This document shows, in pieces, positions 3,792-12,663 of a stretch of 20,000 nt of DNA. Both the position numbers and the translations under genes were made by a program. Each line of letters begins with the position of its first letter. Positions within the stretch are counted from its first letter, which is position 1. Under the pieces are notes generated by a model, which saw nothing but the letters and a program-made list of their open reading frames with translations, did not search any database and had not been told where the DNA came from. The DNA lies in the IMG/VR virus record IMGVR_UViG_3300036715_001702. One strand, written 5' to 3'. The DNA comes from an uncultured virus (IMG/VR IMGVR_UViG_3300036715_001702). Taxonomy: Duplodnaviria > Heunggongvirae > Uroviricota > Caudoviricetes.

Positions 3792-4862
3792 TTAGTTTCT
3801 GTATCCGTTTTCAAATGCTCTTTTTGTTATATTACTAAATTTTTCAAGATCTTCCATTTTCAATCCTTGATTTTCAGCAAAGGCTCTAATGGCACCATAT
3901 AAATCTGATAGTTCTACCATCATCATAATCTTGCAATCTTGTTCCATAGCATCTTTTAGTTCTTCTAATTCTTCTTCTATTTTCGAAATATCTCCAAGTG
4001 TTCCTTTTTTGATATCTTTTAAATGATAACCTTTTTCTATTATATCAGGGAATATTTTTCCATCATTCCTTATAGAAAAAAGAATTTTGTCTGATGTATT
4101 TTCTGGATATGCTACTTTGCCATGTTCTGATGAAAATAACAATTCGTCATTTGAATTTTTTATTGCATAATCGTATATGCAAGATTTAATCGGTGTATAG
4201 AATAAATCTTTCATCATTTCTTCTTGAGTATAGAATTTTTCTTTCTGATAAGGAACTTCTCTATCATTATATTTATCTATGTTGTGATTTTTGTATTTCA
4301 AAACTTTGTGAGCAATAGGATAAACATGATATCTATGATAAGTTTTATGAATCCCAGTTTCAGACATTTCTATTATCACATTATCAGTATTATCATAAGC
4401 TACTAACATTCCTGTTACAGATTCGTCGTCTCTTATTTTTACTAATGAATTGATATCAATATTCTTATCATAGACTTCGTAGTAATATGTATCGCTGTAT
4501 GAATACAATTTTTCTTTAATCTTTTTCTCTACATCCTTTGTGTTGTAGATCATATCTAATGAACTATCGTCTATAGTATCCAATCCTATCAACAGGCTTT
4601 TTTGTTTTTCGTCTAGCTGTATGACTTTGTAGGGTTCACATAAAGGCCAAAGCTCATTCACTGTATATAAATAATCGTTTATCACATATGTTGTATTTAT
4701 TGTTGATTCATAAACATGATCTATGTTTTCTACATTCATGTTTCCTGATGCATTTTTTATCACTACTAATGAACCTGTTTTTAAGTTTGGATATCCTTCA
4801 TATATTTCAGATAAGAACAAGATCTCGTTAAGATAGTTTCTATGTATGTGATATTTTGCCAT
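3792..4862 (-). CDS. Protein with a C-terminal MazG/HisE-like all-alpha NTP pyrophosphohydrolase domain
   Basis: C-terminal KIEEELEELKDA...ELSDLYGAI fits the ExxE...ExxD metal-binding pattern. The N-terminal ~275 aa are unrecognised. Confidence 0.6.
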   Translation of the reverse strand: MAKYHIHRNYLNEILFLSEIYEGYPNLKTGSLVVIKNASGNMNVENIDHVYESTINTTYVINDYLYTVNELWPLCEPYKVIQLDEKQKSLLIGLDTIDDSSLDMIYNTKDVEKKIKEKLYSYSDTYYYEVYDKNIDINSLVKIRDDESVTGMLVAYDNTDNVIIEMSETGIHKTYHRYHVYPIAHKVLKYKNHNIDKYNDREVPYQKEKFYTQEEMMKDLFYTPIKSCIYDYAIKNSNDELLFSSEHGKVAYPENTSDKILFSIRNDGKIFPDIIEKGYHLKDIKKGTLGDISKIEEELEELKDAMEQDCKIMMMVELSDLYGAIRAFAENQGLKMEDLEKFSNITKRAFENGYRN

Positions 4863-9055: not shown

Positions 9056-9280
9056 ATGGCAACTTCATCAACTAAAAAAGCAGCTCCTAAAAAAGCTGCA
9101 GCGAAAAAGACTGTCGCAGCGAAAGCTCCAGCAAAAAAAGCAACAACTAAAGCTGCACCAGCTAAAAAAGCTGCACCAGCTAAAACTACAACAGCTAAAG
9201 TTGCACCAGCAAAATCTGCTGCTAAGAAAGCTGTAGTGAAGAAATCAGCTCCTAAAAAAGAAGCTGCTCGTCCTCAGTAG
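9056..9280 (+). CDS. Histone H1-like Lys/Ala/Pro-rich DNA-binding protein
   Basis: Repeated KKAAP/KAPAK units, an A-rich translation initiation region and its own terminator. Confidence 0.75.
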   Translation: MATSSTKKAAPKKAAAKKTVAAKAPAKKATTKAAPAKKAAPAKTTTAKVAPAKSAAKKAVVKKSAPKKEAARPQ

Positions 9281-9306
9281 TTATAATAAAAATAGTTAAA
9301 ATAGAT

Positions 9307-9340
9307 AAAAAACTCTAAACATATGTTTAGAGTTTTTTTT
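9307..9340 (+). terminator. Intrinsic terminator (palindromic, likely bidirectional)
   Basis: AAAAAACTCTAAAC-ATAT-GTTTAGAGTTTTTTTT. Confidence 0.85.
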
Positions 9341-9363
9341 GATAAAATATTTTTTATTCAATT

Positions 9364-9390
9364 GAACTTTTGTATATTTGTAAAGTATAA
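9364..9390 (+). promoter_or_regulatory. Promoter region of the leader/tRNA operon
   Basis: TATATTTG at 9373-9380 (Bacteroidota -7 box) and GAACTT-N15-GTATAA. Confidence 0.55.
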
Positions 9391-9397
9391 TATAGTA

Positions 9398-9475
9398 ATG
9401 AAAAACAATTCAACGATATTGACCTTATGTATGATGCTGATTCTGAAGATTGGTACTGGGCTATATATTTGTTAA
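9398..9475 (+). CDS. Putative attenuator leader peptide MKNNSTILTLCMMLILKIGTGLYIC
   Basis: 25-codon ORF between the promoter and a terminator. Codons 6-16 are all Thr/Ile/Leu/Cys/Met, matching the downstream tRNAs. Confidence 0.7.
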   Translation: MKNNSTILTLCMMLILKIGTGLYIC

Positions 9476-9501
9476 ATGTTAGATAAACATATTTTAATAA
9501 T

Positions 9502-9540
9502 AAAAGCTCAGCTCGTAAGGTTGAGTTTTTTTATTTTTAT
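9502..9540 (+). terminator. Intrinsic terminator / attenuator directly upstream of the tRNA array
   Basis: AAAAGCTCAGC-TCGTAAG-GTTGAGTTTTTTT. The 5' arm AGCTCAG (9505-9511) can alternatively pair with CTGGGCT (9456-9462). Confidence 0.75.
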
Positions 9541-9542
9541 TT

Positions 9543-9616
9543 GCCTCGTTAGTAGAGTTGGTTCATACTTCAGATTTAGAATCTGAAGATCGCTGGGTCG
9601 GAACCGGCACGAGGTA
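9543..9616 (+). tRNA. trnL: tRNA-Leu (TAG), short variable loop
   Basis: Acceptor GCCTCGT/ACGAGGT, anticodon arm TCAGA-TTTAGAA-TCTGA, variable loop AGATC, T arm GCTGG-GTCGGAA-CCGGC, discriminator A. Confidence 0.85.
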
Positions 9617-9623
9617 CAAAAAT

Positions 9624-9696
9624 AGTGCATTGATGCAGTTGGTTGACATATTGGACTTAAAATCCAAGTACATCGGATCGTTCCAGATATGCACTA
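9624..9696 (+). tRNA. trnL: tRNA-Leu (TAA), short variable loop
   Basis: Acceptor AGTGCAT/ATGCACT, anticodon arm TTGGA-CTTAAAA-TCCAA, variable loop GTAC, T arm ATCGG-ATCGTTC-CAGAT (one mismatch), discriminator A. Confidence 0.8.
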
Positions 9697-9708
9697 CAAA
9701 ATATAAAT

Positions 9709-9780
9709 TGCCATGTAGCTCAGTGATAGAGCAATTCCCTCATAAGGAATAGGTCTCGAGTTTAATCCTCGACATGGCGA
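9709..9780 (+). tRNA. tRNA with CAT anticodon (elongator Met or Ile2)
   Basis: TGCCATG/CATGGCG, GCTC/GAGC D stem, ATTCC-CTCATAA-GGAAT, TCGAG-TTTAATC-CTCGA. Lacks the three G-C anticodon-stem pairs of initiator tRNA. Confidence 0.85.
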
Positions 9781-9790
9781 CAACTAATAT

Positions 9791-9863
9791 AGTCTTATAT
9801 GTCAGTGGTTAGACGGTCAAACTGATACTTTGAAGGTCGTGTGTTCGAATCACACTAAGACTA
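9791..9863 (+). tRNA. trnI: tRNA-Ile (GAT)
   Basis: AGTCTTA/TAAGACT, TCAAA-CTGATAC-TTTGA, GTGTG-TTCGAAT-CACAC. Confidence 0.9.
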
Positions 9864-9874
9864 CTTTTAAAAAT

Positions 9875-9946
9875 GCTCATATGGCCGAGTGACTAGGTCA
9901 CGATCTGCAAAATCGTTGTACGTTGGTTTGATCCCAACTATGAGCT
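9875..9946 (+). tRNA. trnC: tRNA-Cys (GCA)
   Basis: GCTCATA/TATGAGC, ACGAT-CTGCAAA-ATCGT, GTTGG-TTTGATC-CCAAC, and the U73 discriminator expected for Cys. Confidence 0.9.
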
Positions 9947-9958
9947 CAAAATAAAAAT

Positions 9959-10030
9959 GCCGATATAGTTCAGTGTTAGAATGTCACATTTGTAATGTGA
10001 ATGTCCTGGGTTAGATTCCTAGTATCGGCT
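9959..10030 (+). tRNA. trnT: tRNA-Thr (TGT)
   Basis: GCCGATA/TATCGGC, TCACA-TTTGTAA-TGTGA, CTGGG-TTAGATT-CCTAG. Confidence 0.9.
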
Positions 10031-10054
10031 CCGAATACTGATAGTGGCTCAGAT

Positions 10055-10094
10055 TTTTTCATACATAATAAAAATATTAATTATGTATGAAAAA
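10055..10094 (+). repeat. Perfect 15-bp inverted repeat covering the HNH start codon
   Basis: TTTTTCATACATAAT (10055-10069) pairs with ATTATGTATGAAAAA (10080-10094). ATG 10087 lies inside the right arm. Confidence 0.8.
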
Positions 10095-11265
10095 TAAGAC
10101 TCAGTTTGATTATGAAAAATTAAAAAAAATTATTAGATCAAGGATTGTCAATTGATGAAATTTCATTTGAAATGAAAACATCAATATCAAATGTAAAAAG
10201 AAAAAAAATTGAATTAAAAACTGGATTAAAATATAATCTTAGAATTGTTAAAGAAGTTGAAAAAAAATAAAATGTTTATATTGCAAAAATGATATAAAAA
10301 CAACACCAAATGGACAAAGAAAATTTTGCAGTAGGGTATGCTCTATTTCATATAGAAATCAAAACAGTGATATTAAAAATAAGTGTTTCAATTGTGAAAA
10401 TGAAATAGAATCTTCTGACAAAAGAAGAAAATTTTGTAATAGTTCTTATGCATCAATTTATAATAATAAAATAAGAATTAAAAAAGAAGCTAAGCGTGCT
10501 GAAAAAAGGATATATCATAAAAGAAATAATCAAAATAAAAAAAATGTCAAAATTGTAATAGTATTGTGAAATATTCAAAAAGTGTATATTGTAGTTCTAA
10601 ATGTCAAAATCAATATCAAAGGAAACTAAAATTTGAAAAGATTGAAAATGGAGATTTAACATTATCAACAAGAGTGTATAATATTAAGTAACTGATTTTA
10701 TATCAATTTATATAAAAATATTTAAACTAAACCATTTTTATATAATATATGCTCTATTATCAATTAATTGATTAATTGATTAATGTTCATTGACATGTTG
10801 GTTGTATGAAATTTACAAATTCATACGTAAAACAAATGTAATAAAAATACATTTTTCGCACTGAAAAGTGCGAATATGAAATATTCGGTAGGGATGAGTA
10901 AACCCGAACCTGAACAAGAGATTGTTCTAAAAGATCGTGGAGATGCTGGGTTACTGGTGTCTATGAAGCAATAAGTAAAAAATGTTGGATAATTTTTCAA
11001 TATTTTGCATTACTATAAATTATATCTTATAGATAAATATGGAGCAAAATGTATGATATGCGGTTGGAATGAAATCAATCCTAAAAGTGGTAAAGTTCCA
11101 ATTGAATTAGAACATAGTGATGGAAATTCTGCCAATAATAATTTAAAAAATTTAAAATTATTATGTCCTAATCATCACTCATTAACTCCTACTTATAAAG
11201 GCTTAAATAAAGGTAATGGTAGAGCAAATAGAATGAAAAGATATCATGATTGTAAATCATGGTAA
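10087..11265 (+). pseudogene. Disrupted HNH homing endonuclease (HTH, three CxxC..(F/Y)CSxxC Zn-finger repeats, HNH)
   Basis: Fragments LLDQGLSIDEISFEMKTSISNVKR, KCLYC..RKFCSRVC, KCFNC..RKFCNSSY, KCQNC..VYCSSKC, then CMICGW..IELEHSDGNSANN..NLKLLCPNHH. Frameshifts at A8 runs near 10125, 10263 and 10540, plus a 337-bp insertion. Confidence 0.8.
10677..11013 (+). mobile_element. 337-bp non-coding insertion, probable non-autonomous IS200/605- or IS607-derived element with an omega-RNA-like right end
   Basis: Removing it restores the HNH frame (..TRV|YKLYLIDKYG..). TATAA occurs at both junctions. It has several hairpins, and the 3' part GGTAGGGATGAGTAAACCCGAAC..CGTGGAGA..TATGAAGCAATAAG resembles tnpB 3'-end sequence. 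Confidence 0.6.
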
Positions 11266-11366: not shown

Positions 11367-12647
11367 ATGGAAACAAAAAATAAAATATACGTTAACGTTG
11401 CATTTCCTTATCCTTCAGGAGCAGGATTACATGTAGGTCATAGTTACAATTATGCTATCATTGATAGCTACTGTAGATGGTTAACATATTATCAAAACAA
11501 AGAAGTGTTTCAACCTTTTGGTTACGACGCACATGGTTTACCGACGGAATTATATGCTGCTAAACATAATAGAGAACCAAGAGATGTAGCTTATGAAAAC
11601 ATTAACAAATTCAGAAATCAGATGCAAGATATGCATACTAACTATGTAGAAAAATTAATCACATCGGATACATCTTATCAAAAATGGACACAATGGCTGT
11701 TTTTAAAATTAAAGGAACATGGATTATGTTATAAGAAGAAAGCTGTAGTTTGTAGATGTCCCAGTTGCGAAACAGTAGTTTCTAATGAACAAGTAGAAAA
11801 CGGGAAATGTGAAAGATGTTCCACCCCTGTAGAACAAAAAGAAATGGATCAGTGGTATTTCAAGATCACTGATTACAGAGAAAGATTAATTAAAAATTTA
11901 GGACATTTAGATTATCCTGCAAAGACGAAAAAGATGCAGATCAATTGGTTAGAATCTATTACTGATTGGTGTGTATCAAGACAACGTAAATGGGGATGTC
12001 CTATTCCTATAGAAGGAGAGCTGGACACTATAGATACATTTGTTGATTCAAGCATATACTATATCAGATATAATGATCCTGAAAACGAAAATGAATTATG
12101 CTCGAAAGATAAATACAAACAAGTCGATTTATATGTGATAGGTTCTGAACACTGTAACAGACATTTGATCTATGCAAGATTTATCCATATGTTTTTATAT
12201 GATATCGGATTAGTTCCTGTTGAAGAACCTTTCGTGAAAGTGATTCATCAAGGTCACATCACAAAAGACGGTTTCAAAATGAGCAAGACTAAAGGAAACA
12301 CTGTTACTCCTGATGATTACGATTCGGATGAAATCAGAATGTATTTATGTTTCATTGGTCATTATTTTGATGGTGGAGATTGGAGCGATAAAAATATAGT
12401 CGGCATTAAACGCTTCTTCAACAGAATTGATAAATGGTTAGAAGCTCCTGGAAATGATGATATATCTAAAGAAATAGATATAATGAAATCCAAGATTGAT
12501 AAGTTTGTTACAGATTTTAAATTCAATAAAGTTGTTAGCACAATGATGGAATTTTACAATGATCATAAGAATAAAAACATCTCTATAGAAAATATTACAG
12601 AGTTTAAGAAAGTGTTAGGTTGTTTTGCACCAAAAAAGTACAGTTAA
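11367..12647 (+). CDS. leuS: Minimal leucyl-tRNA synthetase (426 aa)
   Basis: FPYPSGAGLHVGH (HIGH motif), GYDAHGLPTE, Zn knuckle CPSC..CERC, DWCVSRQRKWGCPIP, DTFVDSS, EEPF and KMSKTKGN. Confidence 0.92.
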   Translation: METKNKIYVNVAFPYPSGAGLHVGHSYNYAIIDSYCRWLTYYQNKEVFQPFGYDAHGLPTELYAAKHNREPRDVAYENINKFRNQMQDMHTNYVEKLITSDTSYQKWTQWLFLKLKEHGLCYKKKAVVCRCPSCETVVSNEQVENGKCERCSTPVEQKEMDQWYFKITDYRERLIKNLGHLDYPAKTKKMQINWLESITDWCVSRQRKWGCPIPIEGELDTIDTFVDSSIYYIRYNDPENENELCSKDKYKQVDLYVIGSEHCNRHLIYARFIHMFLYDIGLVPVEEPFVKVIHQGHITKDGFKMSKTKGNTVTPDDYDSDEIRMYLCFIGHYFDGGDWSDKNIVGIKRFFNRIDKWLEAPGNDDISKEIDIMKSKIDKFVTDFKFNKVVSTMMEFYNDHKNKNISIENITEFKKVLGCFAPKKYS

Positions 12648-12663
12648 AAGCTGTACTTTTTTT
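12632..12663 (+). terminator. Intrinsic terminator overlapping the leuS stop
   Basis: AAAAAAGTACAG-TTAAAAG-CTGTACTTTTTTT. Confidence 0.85.

What the first reader, a model, noticed from the sequence alone, without database searches (positions are those of the whole stretch)
9364..10030. Codon-matched attenuator that may switch on a phage tRNA array when host tRNAs are depleted
Seen in sequence: promoter boxes, a 25-codon ORF (9398-9475), an intrinsic terminator (9502-9540), then six tRNA genes starting 3 nt later. Codons 6-16 are ACG ATA TTG ACC TTA TGT ATG ATG CTG ATT CTG (T I L T L C M M L I L). These are exactly the amino acids of the downstream tRNAs (Leu-TAG, Leu-TAA, CAT, Ile-GAT, Cys, Thr), with both Leu codon families present, and 17 of 25 codons belong to this set. 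CTGGGCT (9456-9462) can pair with the terminator 5' arm AGCTCAG (9505-9511). TTGACCTTATG (9419-9429) can also pair with CGTAAGGTTGA (9514-9524). Established: trp/thr/ilv-type attenuation works by ribosome stalling on leader codons, and anti-phage systems such as PrrC and PARIS cleave tRNAs, which phage tRNAs can rescue. Inference: a ribosome stalled in codons 6-16 leaves 9456-9462 free to antiterminate, whereas one reaching the stop covers it and allows termination. The leader would be a multi-tRNA sensor controlling tRNA genes rather than biosynthetic enzymes. I am not aware of this being described for phage tRNA arrays.
Basis: partly seen in the sequence, partly recalled or inferred. Interest (0 to 1): 0.93.

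Follow-up and report, generated by a model that had tools for sequence, protein, structure and literature searches.

The report
Leader-peptide attenuator gating phage tRNA genes
A tiny translated test gene, written in the codons that the six following phage tRNAs read and wired to a switchable transcription stop, probably lets the phage make these tRNAs only when ribosomes decode those codons slowly, a control long known for amino-acid synthesis genes but apparently not described for tRNA genes.

Summary
Codons 6-16 all encode amino acids of the array. Only 1 of 228 short ORFs in the window, the leader itself, has such a stretch.

I found 30 distinct leader-terminator-array units in the window, five huge-phage contigs and 38 metagenome loci.
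- Leader composition tracks each unit's own array (0 of 20000 permutations reach the observed match).
- 106 of 108 array anticodons have a readable codon in their own leader (6 of 6 in the window).
- The stop codon lies 18-32 nt before the stem in 27 of 30 units.
- Each leader's 3' part is complementary to its own terminator's 5' arm (0 of 20000).

The best reading is a ribosome-mediated attenuator in which stalling gives antitermination and tRNA transcription. The trigger (defence tRNases, starvation or simple feedback) and the host are untested, and there are no RNA data.

Eight literature searches found no description. This scan has noted the same kind of element before on other DNA (76 notes in at least 70 genomes).

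The parts
9307..9338 (.). Two-way terminator-like hairpin that closes the upstream H1-like gene, so the leader needs its own promoter
   Evidence: 14 pairs; T/A runs on both sides
9362..9391 (+). Promoter-like site, TTGAAC-18-TATAAT. The TATAAT ends 6 nt before the ATG, so the transcript may be leaderless or nearly so. A TAnnTTTG match lies inside it at 9373-9380.
   Evidence: One search shows a similar TATAAATA box 5-8 nt before the leader ATG in 5 of 6 leaders of contig G001. L144 and L133 keep an AT-rich -10-like box before their ATG.
9398..9475 (+). Leader ORF, 25 codons plus TAA
   Evidence: A variant contig keeps the frame open.
9413..9445 (+). Regulatory stretch: codons 6-16, all for Thr, Ile, Leu, Cys or Met, the amino acids of the array
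9455..9475 (+). Antiterminator 5' strand (core 9456-9462), in the last six codons and the stop codon
   Evidence: duplex -12.0 against -6.8 +- 1.8 for shuffles, z -2.84; best of 30 leaders for this arm
9469..9500 (+). Small AU-rich hairpin enclosed by the antiterminator helix
9496..9513 (+). 5' arm of the terminator (core 9505-9513), shared between the antiterminator and the terminator
9502..9540 (+). Intrinsic terminator: hairpin 9502-9530 and T tract
   Evidence: (-13.0 kcal/mol, z -4.79). In two other samples 9526 T>C turns a G-U pair into G-C. There are compensatory differences against L144.
9543..9617 (+). tRNA-Leu (TAG), 75 nt, no long variable arm
9624..9697 (+). tRNA-Leu (TAA), 74 nt, no long variable arm
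9709..9781 (+). tRNA with anticodon CAT (Met, or Ile if modified; not decided)
9791..9864 (+). tRNA-Ile (GAT)
9875..9947 (+). tRNA-Cys (GCA)
9959..10032 (+). tRNA-Thr (TGT)
11367..12647 (+). Truncated LeuRS-like gene, possibly the last gene of the same unit. The next + strand terminator-like site after the attenuator is 12632-12662.
   Evidence: In relatives the gene starts about 25 nt after the last tRNA of the array.

Best explanation
This is a ribosome-mediated (leader-peptide) transcription attenuator that controls a phage tRNA operon.

Transcription starts at the promoter at 9362-9391, and the 25-codon leader is translated at once. Two outcomes follow:
- If the ribosome runs through codons 6-16 to the stop codon, it covers the antiterminator strand (9455-9475). 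The terminator (9502-9530) then folds, and RNA polymerase stops 2-12 nt before the first tRNA.
- If the ribosome stalls in codons 6-16 because charged tRNAs for Leu, Ile, Met, Cys or Thr codons are short, the strand 9455-9475 is free. It pairs with the terminator's 5' arm (9496-9513) as soon as that arm is made. The terminator cannot form, and polymerase reads into the six tRNA genes and perhaps on to the LeuRS-like gene.

The leader holds a codon for every tRNA of the array, so the array's own products close a negative feedback loop. Any shortage of those tRNAs would open the gate, whether from codon-usage mismatch with the host, starvation, or tRNA-cutting defence.

Shown here: the parts, their order and spacing, the match between leader and array across many units, and the specific complementarity. 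Inferred: translation of the ORF, the direction of the switch, and the trigger.
For: In the window:
- The parts and coordinates are confirmed.
- 10 of 10 codons in the best stretch come from the array's amino-acid set, against a background frequency of 0.27.
- Only 1 of 228 short ORFs in the window has such a stretch.
- 6 of 6 tRNAs have a readable codon in the leader.
- The antiterminator fold of 9450-9513 is -13.2 kcal/mol (z -2.18; 6 of 200 shuffles as good). The terminator is -13.0, and the two are mutually exclusive.
- The modelled chance of the terminator is 0.83 with a ribosome at the stop codon and 0.48-0.68 with one stalled in the regulatory codons.

Variant contig from another sample:
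- The frame stays open.
- The 3 changes inside codons 6-16 are two synonymous Leu changes that stay readable by the Leu-TAG tRNA, and one Met-to-Thr change that stays within the set.
- The cores of both pairing strands are unchanged.
- 9526 T>C strengthens the terminator stem.

The class:
- 15 units in the window and five huge-phage contigs: own-array match 57.8 against 14.0 +- 4.5, 0 of 20000 permutations, own array ranked first for 12 of 15.
- All 84 array heads scored without using terminators: 118.4 against 68.6 +- 6.0, 0 of 20000, with 17 of 84 heads at empirical p <= 0.05.
- 30 distinct units after adding 38 metagenome loci: 134.4 against 36.6 +- 8.2, 0 of 20000, own array top for 21 of 30.
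- 10 representatives with little-overlapping amino-acid sets: own array top for 10 of 10, 0 of 50000.
- 106 of 108 distinct array anticodons have a readable codon in their own leader, against 56.8 +- 5.7 (max 78) when leaders are dealt to other arrays.
- The stop-to-stem distance is 18-32 nt in 27 of 30 units.
- The antiterminator duplex with a unit's own terminator arm totals -321.1, against -248.6 +- 12.3 with other units' arms, 0 of 20000. Against shuffles, Stouffer Z is -4.39 over 15 units. The strand lies within or overlaps the last 14 codons or the stop in 14 of 15.
- At the syntenic place upstream of the LeuRS-like gene, the arrays differ between relatives and the leaders differ with them.
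Against: - No expression data exist: no RNA run holds the stretch. Translation, termination and read-through are therefore all inferred.
- The whole-leader fold is not unusual (z -1.44).
- The equilibrium model gives a high chance of the terminator in every ribosome state for most units, so it does not show a switch. In the window the untranslated RNA favours the antiterminated form (0.30), unlike trp. Any switch must therefore be kinetic, and that was not modelled.
- The synonymous-codon signal is modest overall (43 of 56 informative codons readable against 33.7 expected, z 2.7). It is absent in the window itself (11 of 17 against 10.4), where ACC, ACT and ATA are not readable under strict wobble rules.
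- 67 of 84 array heads have no matched leader, and contig G004 has 0 of 18 heads that pass my terminator rule.
- The units are not phylogenetically independent; for example, there are several homologous Gln leaders.
- The window's terminator is weak (3 G-C pairs).
Confidence: 0.8

Rival explanations
1. The same parts work with the opposite logic. A ribosome following RNA polymerase closely suppresses the terminator, so good decoding of the leader gives read-through and poor decoding gives termination. This would be positive feedback, or a check that translation works.
For: The leader ORF and terminator are close together, and coupling is known to suppress terminators (established knowledge; abstract of PMC5021804 seen in the listing). 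The equilibrium model does not show a clear stall-dependent switch for most units.
Against: The stop codon lies 18-32 nt before the stem in 27 of 30 units, so a terminating ribosome would not reach the stem. It would instead cover the strand that is complementary to the terminator's 5' arm, which favours termination. Specific antiterminator complementarity (0 of 20000) has no role in this model.
Confidence: 0.08
2. The leader's match to the array is real, but control acts after transcription. For example, a stalled ribosome or the alternative fold could change RNase P/RNase E processing or the stability of the pre-tRNA, or Rho access, rather than intrinsic termination.
For: The hairpin and U tract end 2-12 nt before the mature 5' end of the first tRNA, so they are part of the RNase P substrate in any read-through transcript. 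The window's hairpin is weak for a terminator (3 G-C pairs).
Against: In relatives the hairpins are strong, G+C-rich and followed by T runs (-11 to -26 kcal/mol), the usual form of intrinsic terminators. Some lie 90-120 nt before the first tRNA, too far to be part of the RNase P site.
Confidence: 0.06
3. It is a chance ORF or a small hydrophobic membrane peptide gene with its own terminator. The tRNAs would be made by leaky read-through, and the amino-acid match would reflect only the hydrophobic, AT-rich composition.
For: Leu, Ile, Met, Cys and Thr are common in hydrophobic peptides and in AT-rich frames. The whole-leader fold has z of only -1.44.
Against: Only 1 of 228 short ORFs in the window, 2 of 3393 in G002 and 1 of 5361 in G003 reach the same stretch. 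Leaders before polar arrays (Gln, Asn, His, Glu/Arg, Asp/Glu, Leu/Ser) are polar and match as well. All permutation tests gave 0 hits.
Confidence: 0.03

Closest known systems
Multivalent leader-peptide attenuators of enterobacterial amino-acid operons (ilvGMEDA leader with Leu/Val/Ile codons; thr leader with Thr/Ile codons; also trpL, hisL, leuL, pheL). Recalled from established knowledge; pheL also from the abstract of PMC3082878.
   Same: A promoter-proximal short ORF holds a run of codons for the relevant amino acids. An intrinsic terminator follows. An alternative pairing uses the terminator's 5' arm and is hidden by a ribosome at the stop codon. Several amino acids are sensed by one leader.
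   Different: The regulated genes are tRNAs, the decoding reagents themselves, not biosynthetic enzymes. The leader samples up to eight amino acids and has a codon for nearly every anticodon of its array (106 of 108). The element is in a phage and occurs many times per genome, each copy tuned to its own array. There is no sequence similarity and no Rfam leader family match. A clear 1:2 'pause' hairpin was not established.
pheST (pheM leader) attenuation of phenylalanyl-tRNA synthetase in E. coli (recalled, not checked in a paper here)
   Same: Leader-peptide attenuation controls a component of the translation supply chain. Here the LeuRS-like gene may lie in the same unit.
   Different: The target there is a synthetase gene only, sensing one amino acid, in a cellular genome.
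T-box riboswitches (recalled)
   Same: They sense the state of a specific tRNA and switch a terminator/antiterminator upstream of translation-supply genes.
   Different: A T-box binds uncharged tRNA directly through a specifier codon and needs no ribosome or ORF. None of its conserved elements is present, and there is no Rfam match.
Phage tRNA genes as counter-defence (T5 tRNA-Lys against PARIS, PMC11464382; phage tRNAs against retron and other tRNases, PMC11555353). For both I saw only the listing and the start of the abstract.
   Same: Phage-encoded tRNAs replace host tRNAs that have become limiting.
   Different: In what I saw, those papers describe what the tRNAs do, not a sensor that regulates their transcription.

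Membership tests
Ribosome-mediated (leader-peptide) transcription attenuator | Short ORF with a start codon at the 5' end of the transcript, just after a promoter | tested here: met
   The ORF is 9398-9475. The promoter-like site at 9362-9391 ends 6 nt before the ATG, and an upstream terminator at 9307-9338 isolates the unit. The TSS was not mapped.
Ribosome-mediated (leader-peptide) transcription attenuator | A cluster of codons for the amino acid(s) or tRNAs to which the regulated genes relate | tested here: met
   Codons 6-16 are all in the array's set. 6 of 6 tRNAs have a readable codon in the leader. Class-wide permutations gave 0 of 20000.
Ribosome-mediated (leader-peptide) transcription attenuator | Intrinsic terminator between the leader ORF and the regulated genes | tested here: met
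   Hairpin 9502-9530 plus T tract, z -4.79. The first tRNA starts at 9543.
Ribosome-mediated (leader-peptide) transcription attenuator | A mutually exclusive antiterminator that uses the terminator's 5' arm, placed so that a ribosome at the stop codon masks it | tested here: met
   9455-9475 pairs with 9496-9513: z -2.84, best of 30 leaders for this arm, fold -13.2 kcal/mol. Own arms against other units' arms gave 0 of 20000.
Ribosome-mediated (leader-peptide) transcription attenuator | Read-through depends on ribosome stalling at the regulatory codons | not testable with these tools
   No RNA run holds the stretch. The equilibrium model is inconclusive.
Ribosome-mediated (leader-peptide) transcription attenuator | Anti-antiterminator (1:2) pairing that gives termination without translation | tested here: inconclusive
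   A small hairpin at 9435-9455 abuts the antiterminator strand. However, the untranslated RNA is modelled as mostly antiterminated (terminator chance 0.30).
Rfam leader families and T-box | A match to a curated covariance model | tested here: not met
   Only the six tRNAs pass. The leader region has nothing above E = 0.6.

The most novel reading that the evidence does not exclude
Huge phages run their tRNA supply on demand. Each tRNA block, and sometimes an attached synthetase gene, sits behind its own leader that contains a test codon for nearly every tRNA of that block. Together the leaders would form a distributed sensor of decoding capacity. It would switch on exactly the tRNA set whose codons are being read slowly, including when host tRNAs are cut by defence nucleases, and switch it off again through the tRNAs it produces. 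This would be the first case of attenuation acting on tRNA genes, and a new layer in the phage-host conflict over tRNAs.
Probability: 0.6. Interest if true: 0.93.

Novelty: new variant of a known kind. Interest (0 to 1): 0.88.

Why it matters
How phages time and dose the expression of their tRNA arrays is essentially unknown. Why large phages carry so many tRNAs is also still debated, with codon usage, host shut-off and defence evasion all proposed. A leader that is read by the very tRNAs it controls gives a simple, testable feedback circuit, and it turns each array into a readable statement of which codons the phage expects to become limiting.

It extends attenuation, a textbook mechanism, to a new class of target genes and to viruses. 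It offers a compact natural sensor of decoding speed for many codons at once. It also gives a sequence signature (leader composition matching array composition) that can be used to annotate operon starts in uncultured phage genomes.

Tried and rejected
- No whole genome is held for the window.
- The phage record collection holds no relative of 9280-10100 beyond tRNA fragments.
- Exact-DNA scans of viral contigs with the terminator and with a tRNA stem found nothing.
- The DNA ligase found no relatives in viral contigs.
- No RNA holder is listed for the stretch, so expression could not be examined.
- Contigs laid from four DNA runs gave one informative variant of the leader (X6). X5 does not cover 9338-9520.
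- Equilibrium modelling of terminator probability with a masked ribosome footprint was uninformative for most units, because the terminators dominate in every state. A kinetic model would be needed.
- The synonymous-codon test is modest overall (z 2.7) and null for the window itself. In that call the automatic choice picked the wrong overlapping ORF for the G002 Cys-headed unit. It was kept in the counts; the ORF in the other frame was chosen.
- Rfam holds no matching leader family.
- My terminator rule found 0 of 18 units in the G+C-rich contig G004, although 3 of its heads have matched ORFs.
- Eight literature searches and one passage check found no description of leader-peptide attenuation of tRNA genes. 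The library lacks most subscription journals, so this is not proof of absence.
Full report
WHAT IS IN THE WINDOW

The window is AT-rich (30% G+C) and looks like part of a very large phage genome.
- It encodes an NAD-dependent DNA ligase, a DnaJ, a guanylate kinase, a PrsW-type protease and a histone H1-like protein.
- Its truncated LeuRS-like protein (best match leuS_bact at E 4e-106, but 426 aa against a model of 843) has relatives at 56-62% identity on eight viral contigs of 81-608 kb.
- No whole genome is held, and the phage record collection has no relative of the region.
- DNA runs that hold the stretch come from sediment, microbial-mat, ice and glacier metagenomes. None is RNA.

THE OBSERVATION

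- The upstream H1-like gene ends at 9280 and is followed by a two-way terminator-like hairpin at 9307-9338.
- A promoter-like site (TTGAAC, 18 nt, TATAAT; 10 of 12 matches) spans 9362-9391. Its second box ends 6 nt before the ATG at 9398.
- The ORF runs for 25 codons to TAA at 9473-9475. An in-frame ATG at 9323 lies inside the upstream hairpin, before the promoter, and is unlikely to be used.
- The terminator hairpin at 9502-9530 and its T tract fold at -13.0 kcal/mol, z -4.79.
- Six tRNA genes follow from 9543 to 10032, all above Rfam's threshold.
- Seventeen of the 25 codons encode Leu, Ile, Met, Cys or Thr, and codons 6-16 are all from this set.

IS IT MORE THAN CHANCE, IN THE WINDOW ALONE?

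Of 228 short ATG ORFs (12-80 codons, both strands) in the window, only this one has ten consecutive codons from the set. In two AT-rich relatives the figures are 2 of 3393 and 1 of 5361. Each of the six tRNAs can read at least one codon of the leader under strict wobble rules.

At the level of synonymous choice the window shows no signal. Only 11 of 17 informative codons are readable, against 10.4 expected. That count was made on the 50-codon frame and treats ATA, ACC and ACT as unreadable.

THE COMPARATIVE TEST

I did this in three stages.

Stage 1: two syntenic relatives. The tRNA array lies just upstream of the LeuRS-like gene in both, and both arrays have the same architecture.
- In L006 a 23-codon ORF with six alternating Leu and Ser codon pairs, followed by a strong terminator, precedes an array of Leu, Ser, Ser, Ser, Leu, Leu.
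- In L004 a 24-codon ORF rich in Leu, Val and Cys, followed by a terminator, precedes Cys, Val, Leu, Leu, Leu, Leu.

Stage 2: five whole contigs. I fetched five whole contigs (2.15 Mb), called tRNAs (223 in these contigs), and applied a fixed rule. The rule required a hairpin with a T tract within 140 nt upstream of an array head, and an ATG ORF whose stop lies -8 to 90 nt before the stem.
- This gave 15 units including the window.
- Their leaders match arrays as different as Ile/Thr/Val, His, Asn, Asp/Glu, Ala/Cys/Asp/Glu, Phe/Pro/Val, Tyr/Pro/Leu/Met/Cys, Phe/Leu/Trp/Arg/Lys, Gln and Glu.
- Each leader was scored by its best ten-codon stretch against an array's amino-acid set. The own-array total is 57.8 against 14.0 +- 4.5 when arrays are permuted (0 of 20000), and the own array ranks first for 12 of 15 leaders.
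- A version that ignores terminators and scores every short ORF within 300 nt upstream of all 84 array heads gives 118.4 against 68.6 +- 6.0 (0 of 20000). In it, 17 of 84 heads reach an empirical p <= 0.05.
- The elements therefore head only some of the arrays. Many 'heads' by my 300-nt rule are probably internal to longer operons.

Stage 3: metagenome loci. A scan with the LeuRS-like protein gave 41 loci. I dropped three as the same contigs already held.
- The loci added, among others, close compositional relatives of the window. In L144 and L133, ten-tRNA arrays of Asn, Ile, Val, Thr, Leu, Cys, Met and Ser follow leaders built from just those amino acids.
- They also added Gln arrays behind leaders with runs of six or seven Gln codons, and a Glu/Arg array behind a Glu/Arg leader.
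- Over 30 distinct units the own-array total is 134.4 against 36.6 +- 8.2 (0 of 20000), and the own array scores top for 21 of 30.
- With one representative for each of ten little-overlapping amino-acid sets, the own array is top for 10 of 10 (0 of 50000).
- At the anticodon level, 106 of 108 distinct array anticodons have a readable codon in their own leader. When leaders are dealt to other arrays the figure is 56.8 +- 5.7, with a maximum of 78.
- The synonymous-choice test is weaker: 43 of 56 against 33.7 expected, z 2.7.

THE SWITCH

The stop codon lies 18-32 nt before the terminator stem in 27 of 30 units.

The stretch between the last matching codon and the stem contains a strand complementary to the terminator's 5' arm.
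- Against shuffles the combined Z is -4.39 over 15 units.
- The strand lies in, or overlaps, the last 14 codons or the stop codon in 14 of 15.
- Pairing each leader with its own arm gives -321.1 kcal/mol in total, against -248.6 +- 12.3 with other units' arms (0 of 20000). This is covariation between the two strands across units.

In the window:
- The strand is 9455-9475 and the arm is 9496-9513 (z -2.84; best of 30 leaders for this arm).
- The RNA that is free behind a ribosome stalled in the first eight or so regulatory codons, before the 3' arm is made (9450-9513), folds into this antiterminator at -13.2 kcal/mol (z -2.18).
- The terminator alone is -13.0, so the two forms are balanced and mutually exclusive.
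- A ribosome at the stop codon would cover roughly 9458-9488 and so hide the antiterminator strand.

An equilibrium model with masked footprints gives the expected order for the window: terminator chance 0.83 at the stop and 0.48-0.68 when stalled. For most other units the terminator dominates in every state. The decision must therefore be kinetic, and I did not model that.

VARIATION

A contig from a glacier metagenome covers 9308-9557 with ten substitutions and three small indels.
- The reading frame stays open.
- The three substitutions within codons 6-16 are two synonymous Leu changes, both to the codon that pairs exactly with the Leu-TAG tRNA, and one Met-to-Thr change. All stay inside the set.
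- Two replacements fall outside the regulatory stretch.
- The cores 9456-9462 and 9505-9511 are unchanged.
- 9526 T>C, also seen in an ice metagenome, turns a G-U pair of the terminator into G-C.
- Compared with L144, the terminator shows compensatory differences in its stem.

HOW IT MOST LIKELY WORKS

It follows classic leader-peptide attenuation. Fast decoding lets the ribosome reach the stop codon and mask the antiterminator, so the terminator forms. Slow decoding of any of the set's codons leaves the antiterminator free, and polymerase reads into the tRNA genes.

Because the leader is read by the products of the operon, the circuit is a negative feedback on tRNA supply.

No + strand terminator-like site lies between the attenuator and 12632-12662, at the end of the LeuRS-like gene. 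In relatives that gene starts about 25 nt after the last tRNA. The synthetase gene may therefore be under the same control.

What lowers decoding speed in nature is not addressed by my data. Candidates are a mismatch between phage codon usage and host tRNAs, starvation, host shut-off, or tRNA-cutting defence systems (PMC11464382 and PMC11555353, listing and abstract starts only).

COMPARISON WITH WHAT IS KNOWN

It works like the multivalent enterobacterial attenuators (ilvGMEDA, thr) and like the pheST leader; these are recalled from established knowledge. It meets four of the six defining features that I could test. The fifth (stall-dependent read-through) is not testable here, and the sixth (a 1:2 pairing) is inconclusive. 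It matches no Rfam leader or T-box model.

The differences are the target (tRNA genes), the breadth (up to eight amino acids, with a codon for nearly every anticodon), the setting (a phage) and the multiplicity (many array-specific copies per genome).

Eight full-text searches found no description of such control of tRNA genes. The library lacks most subscription journals.

This scan's own notebook holds 76 earlier notes of the same kind in at least 70 other genomes. I did not use these as evidence. None concerns this genome.

VERDICT

I rate it a new variant of a known kind, with high interest. The open points are expression, the direction and kinetics of the switch, the natural trigger and the host.

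Noticed in passing
window 9543-9697; also G002, L127, L129-L131, L133, L139, L140, L143, L144, L148, L149, L160, L162: Both tRNA-Leu genes of the window are only 75 and 74 nt long, so they lack the long variable arm that bacterial tRNA-Leu normally has. Such short Leu tRNAs (73-77 nt) recur in this phage clade beside normal ones of 79-92 nt. They lie next to a LeuRS-like gene of half the normal length. A minimal synthetase paired with minimal tRNA-Leu is worth a look.
   Followed up: partly
window 11367-12647: The LeuRS-like protein has 426 aa. Its best match is bacterial leuS (E 4e-106) but it falls below the curated cut-off, and the matched stretches imply loss of the editing and C-terminal parts. 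It is conserved at 52-66% identity (full-length matches; one short fragment at 40%) in 8 viral and 41 metagenome loci, usually directly after a Leu-containing tRNA array.
   Followed up: partly
window 10087-11265: Between the tRNA array and the LeuRS-like gene lie several short frames with Cys-rich and HNH-like motifs. Only the last one, an 86-aa HNH-like ORF at 11005-11265, is intact. It looks like a decayed homing endonuclease inserted into the operon. A similar HNH-like frame lies before a tRNA-Val in G001. Pfam gave no match for the 86-aa ORF.
   Followed up: no
other contigs in runs X3 and X4 that match window 9361-9407 (tables 7 and 8): A second place in the same metagenomes shares the promoter and the first three codons of the leader (8 differences in 47 nt) and then diverges. 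Read in the frame of the ATG, the next nine codons are 5 Gln, 2 Tyr, 1 Phe and 1 Thr. This is probably the leader of a Gln/Tyr tRNA array of the same or a related phage, which would mean a shared promoter-and-start module with exchangeable regulatory codons.
   Followed up: no
G001 4091-4256; G002 228804; G003 358020, 368276, 374278: The related huge-phage contigs carry tRNAs with anticodon CTA, which ARAGORN labels Pyl. They are probably amber suppressors, so some relatives may read TAG as an amino acid. I did not test whether the window's phage does so. Its leader ends in TAA.
   Followed up: no
G001, 5-8 nt upstream of leader ATGs: Five of the six leaders of the 52% G+C contig G001 start 5-8 nt after a shared TATAAATA box, which suggests leaderless or nearly leaderless leader transcripts. 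The window has TATAAT ending 6 nt before its ATG.
   Followed up: partly
window 9056-9280: A 74-aa Lys/Ala-rich protein has a weak match to the histone H1-like nucleoprotein HC2 (E 1.7e-4, below the cut-off). It lies directly upstream of the attenuator unit.
   Followed up: no
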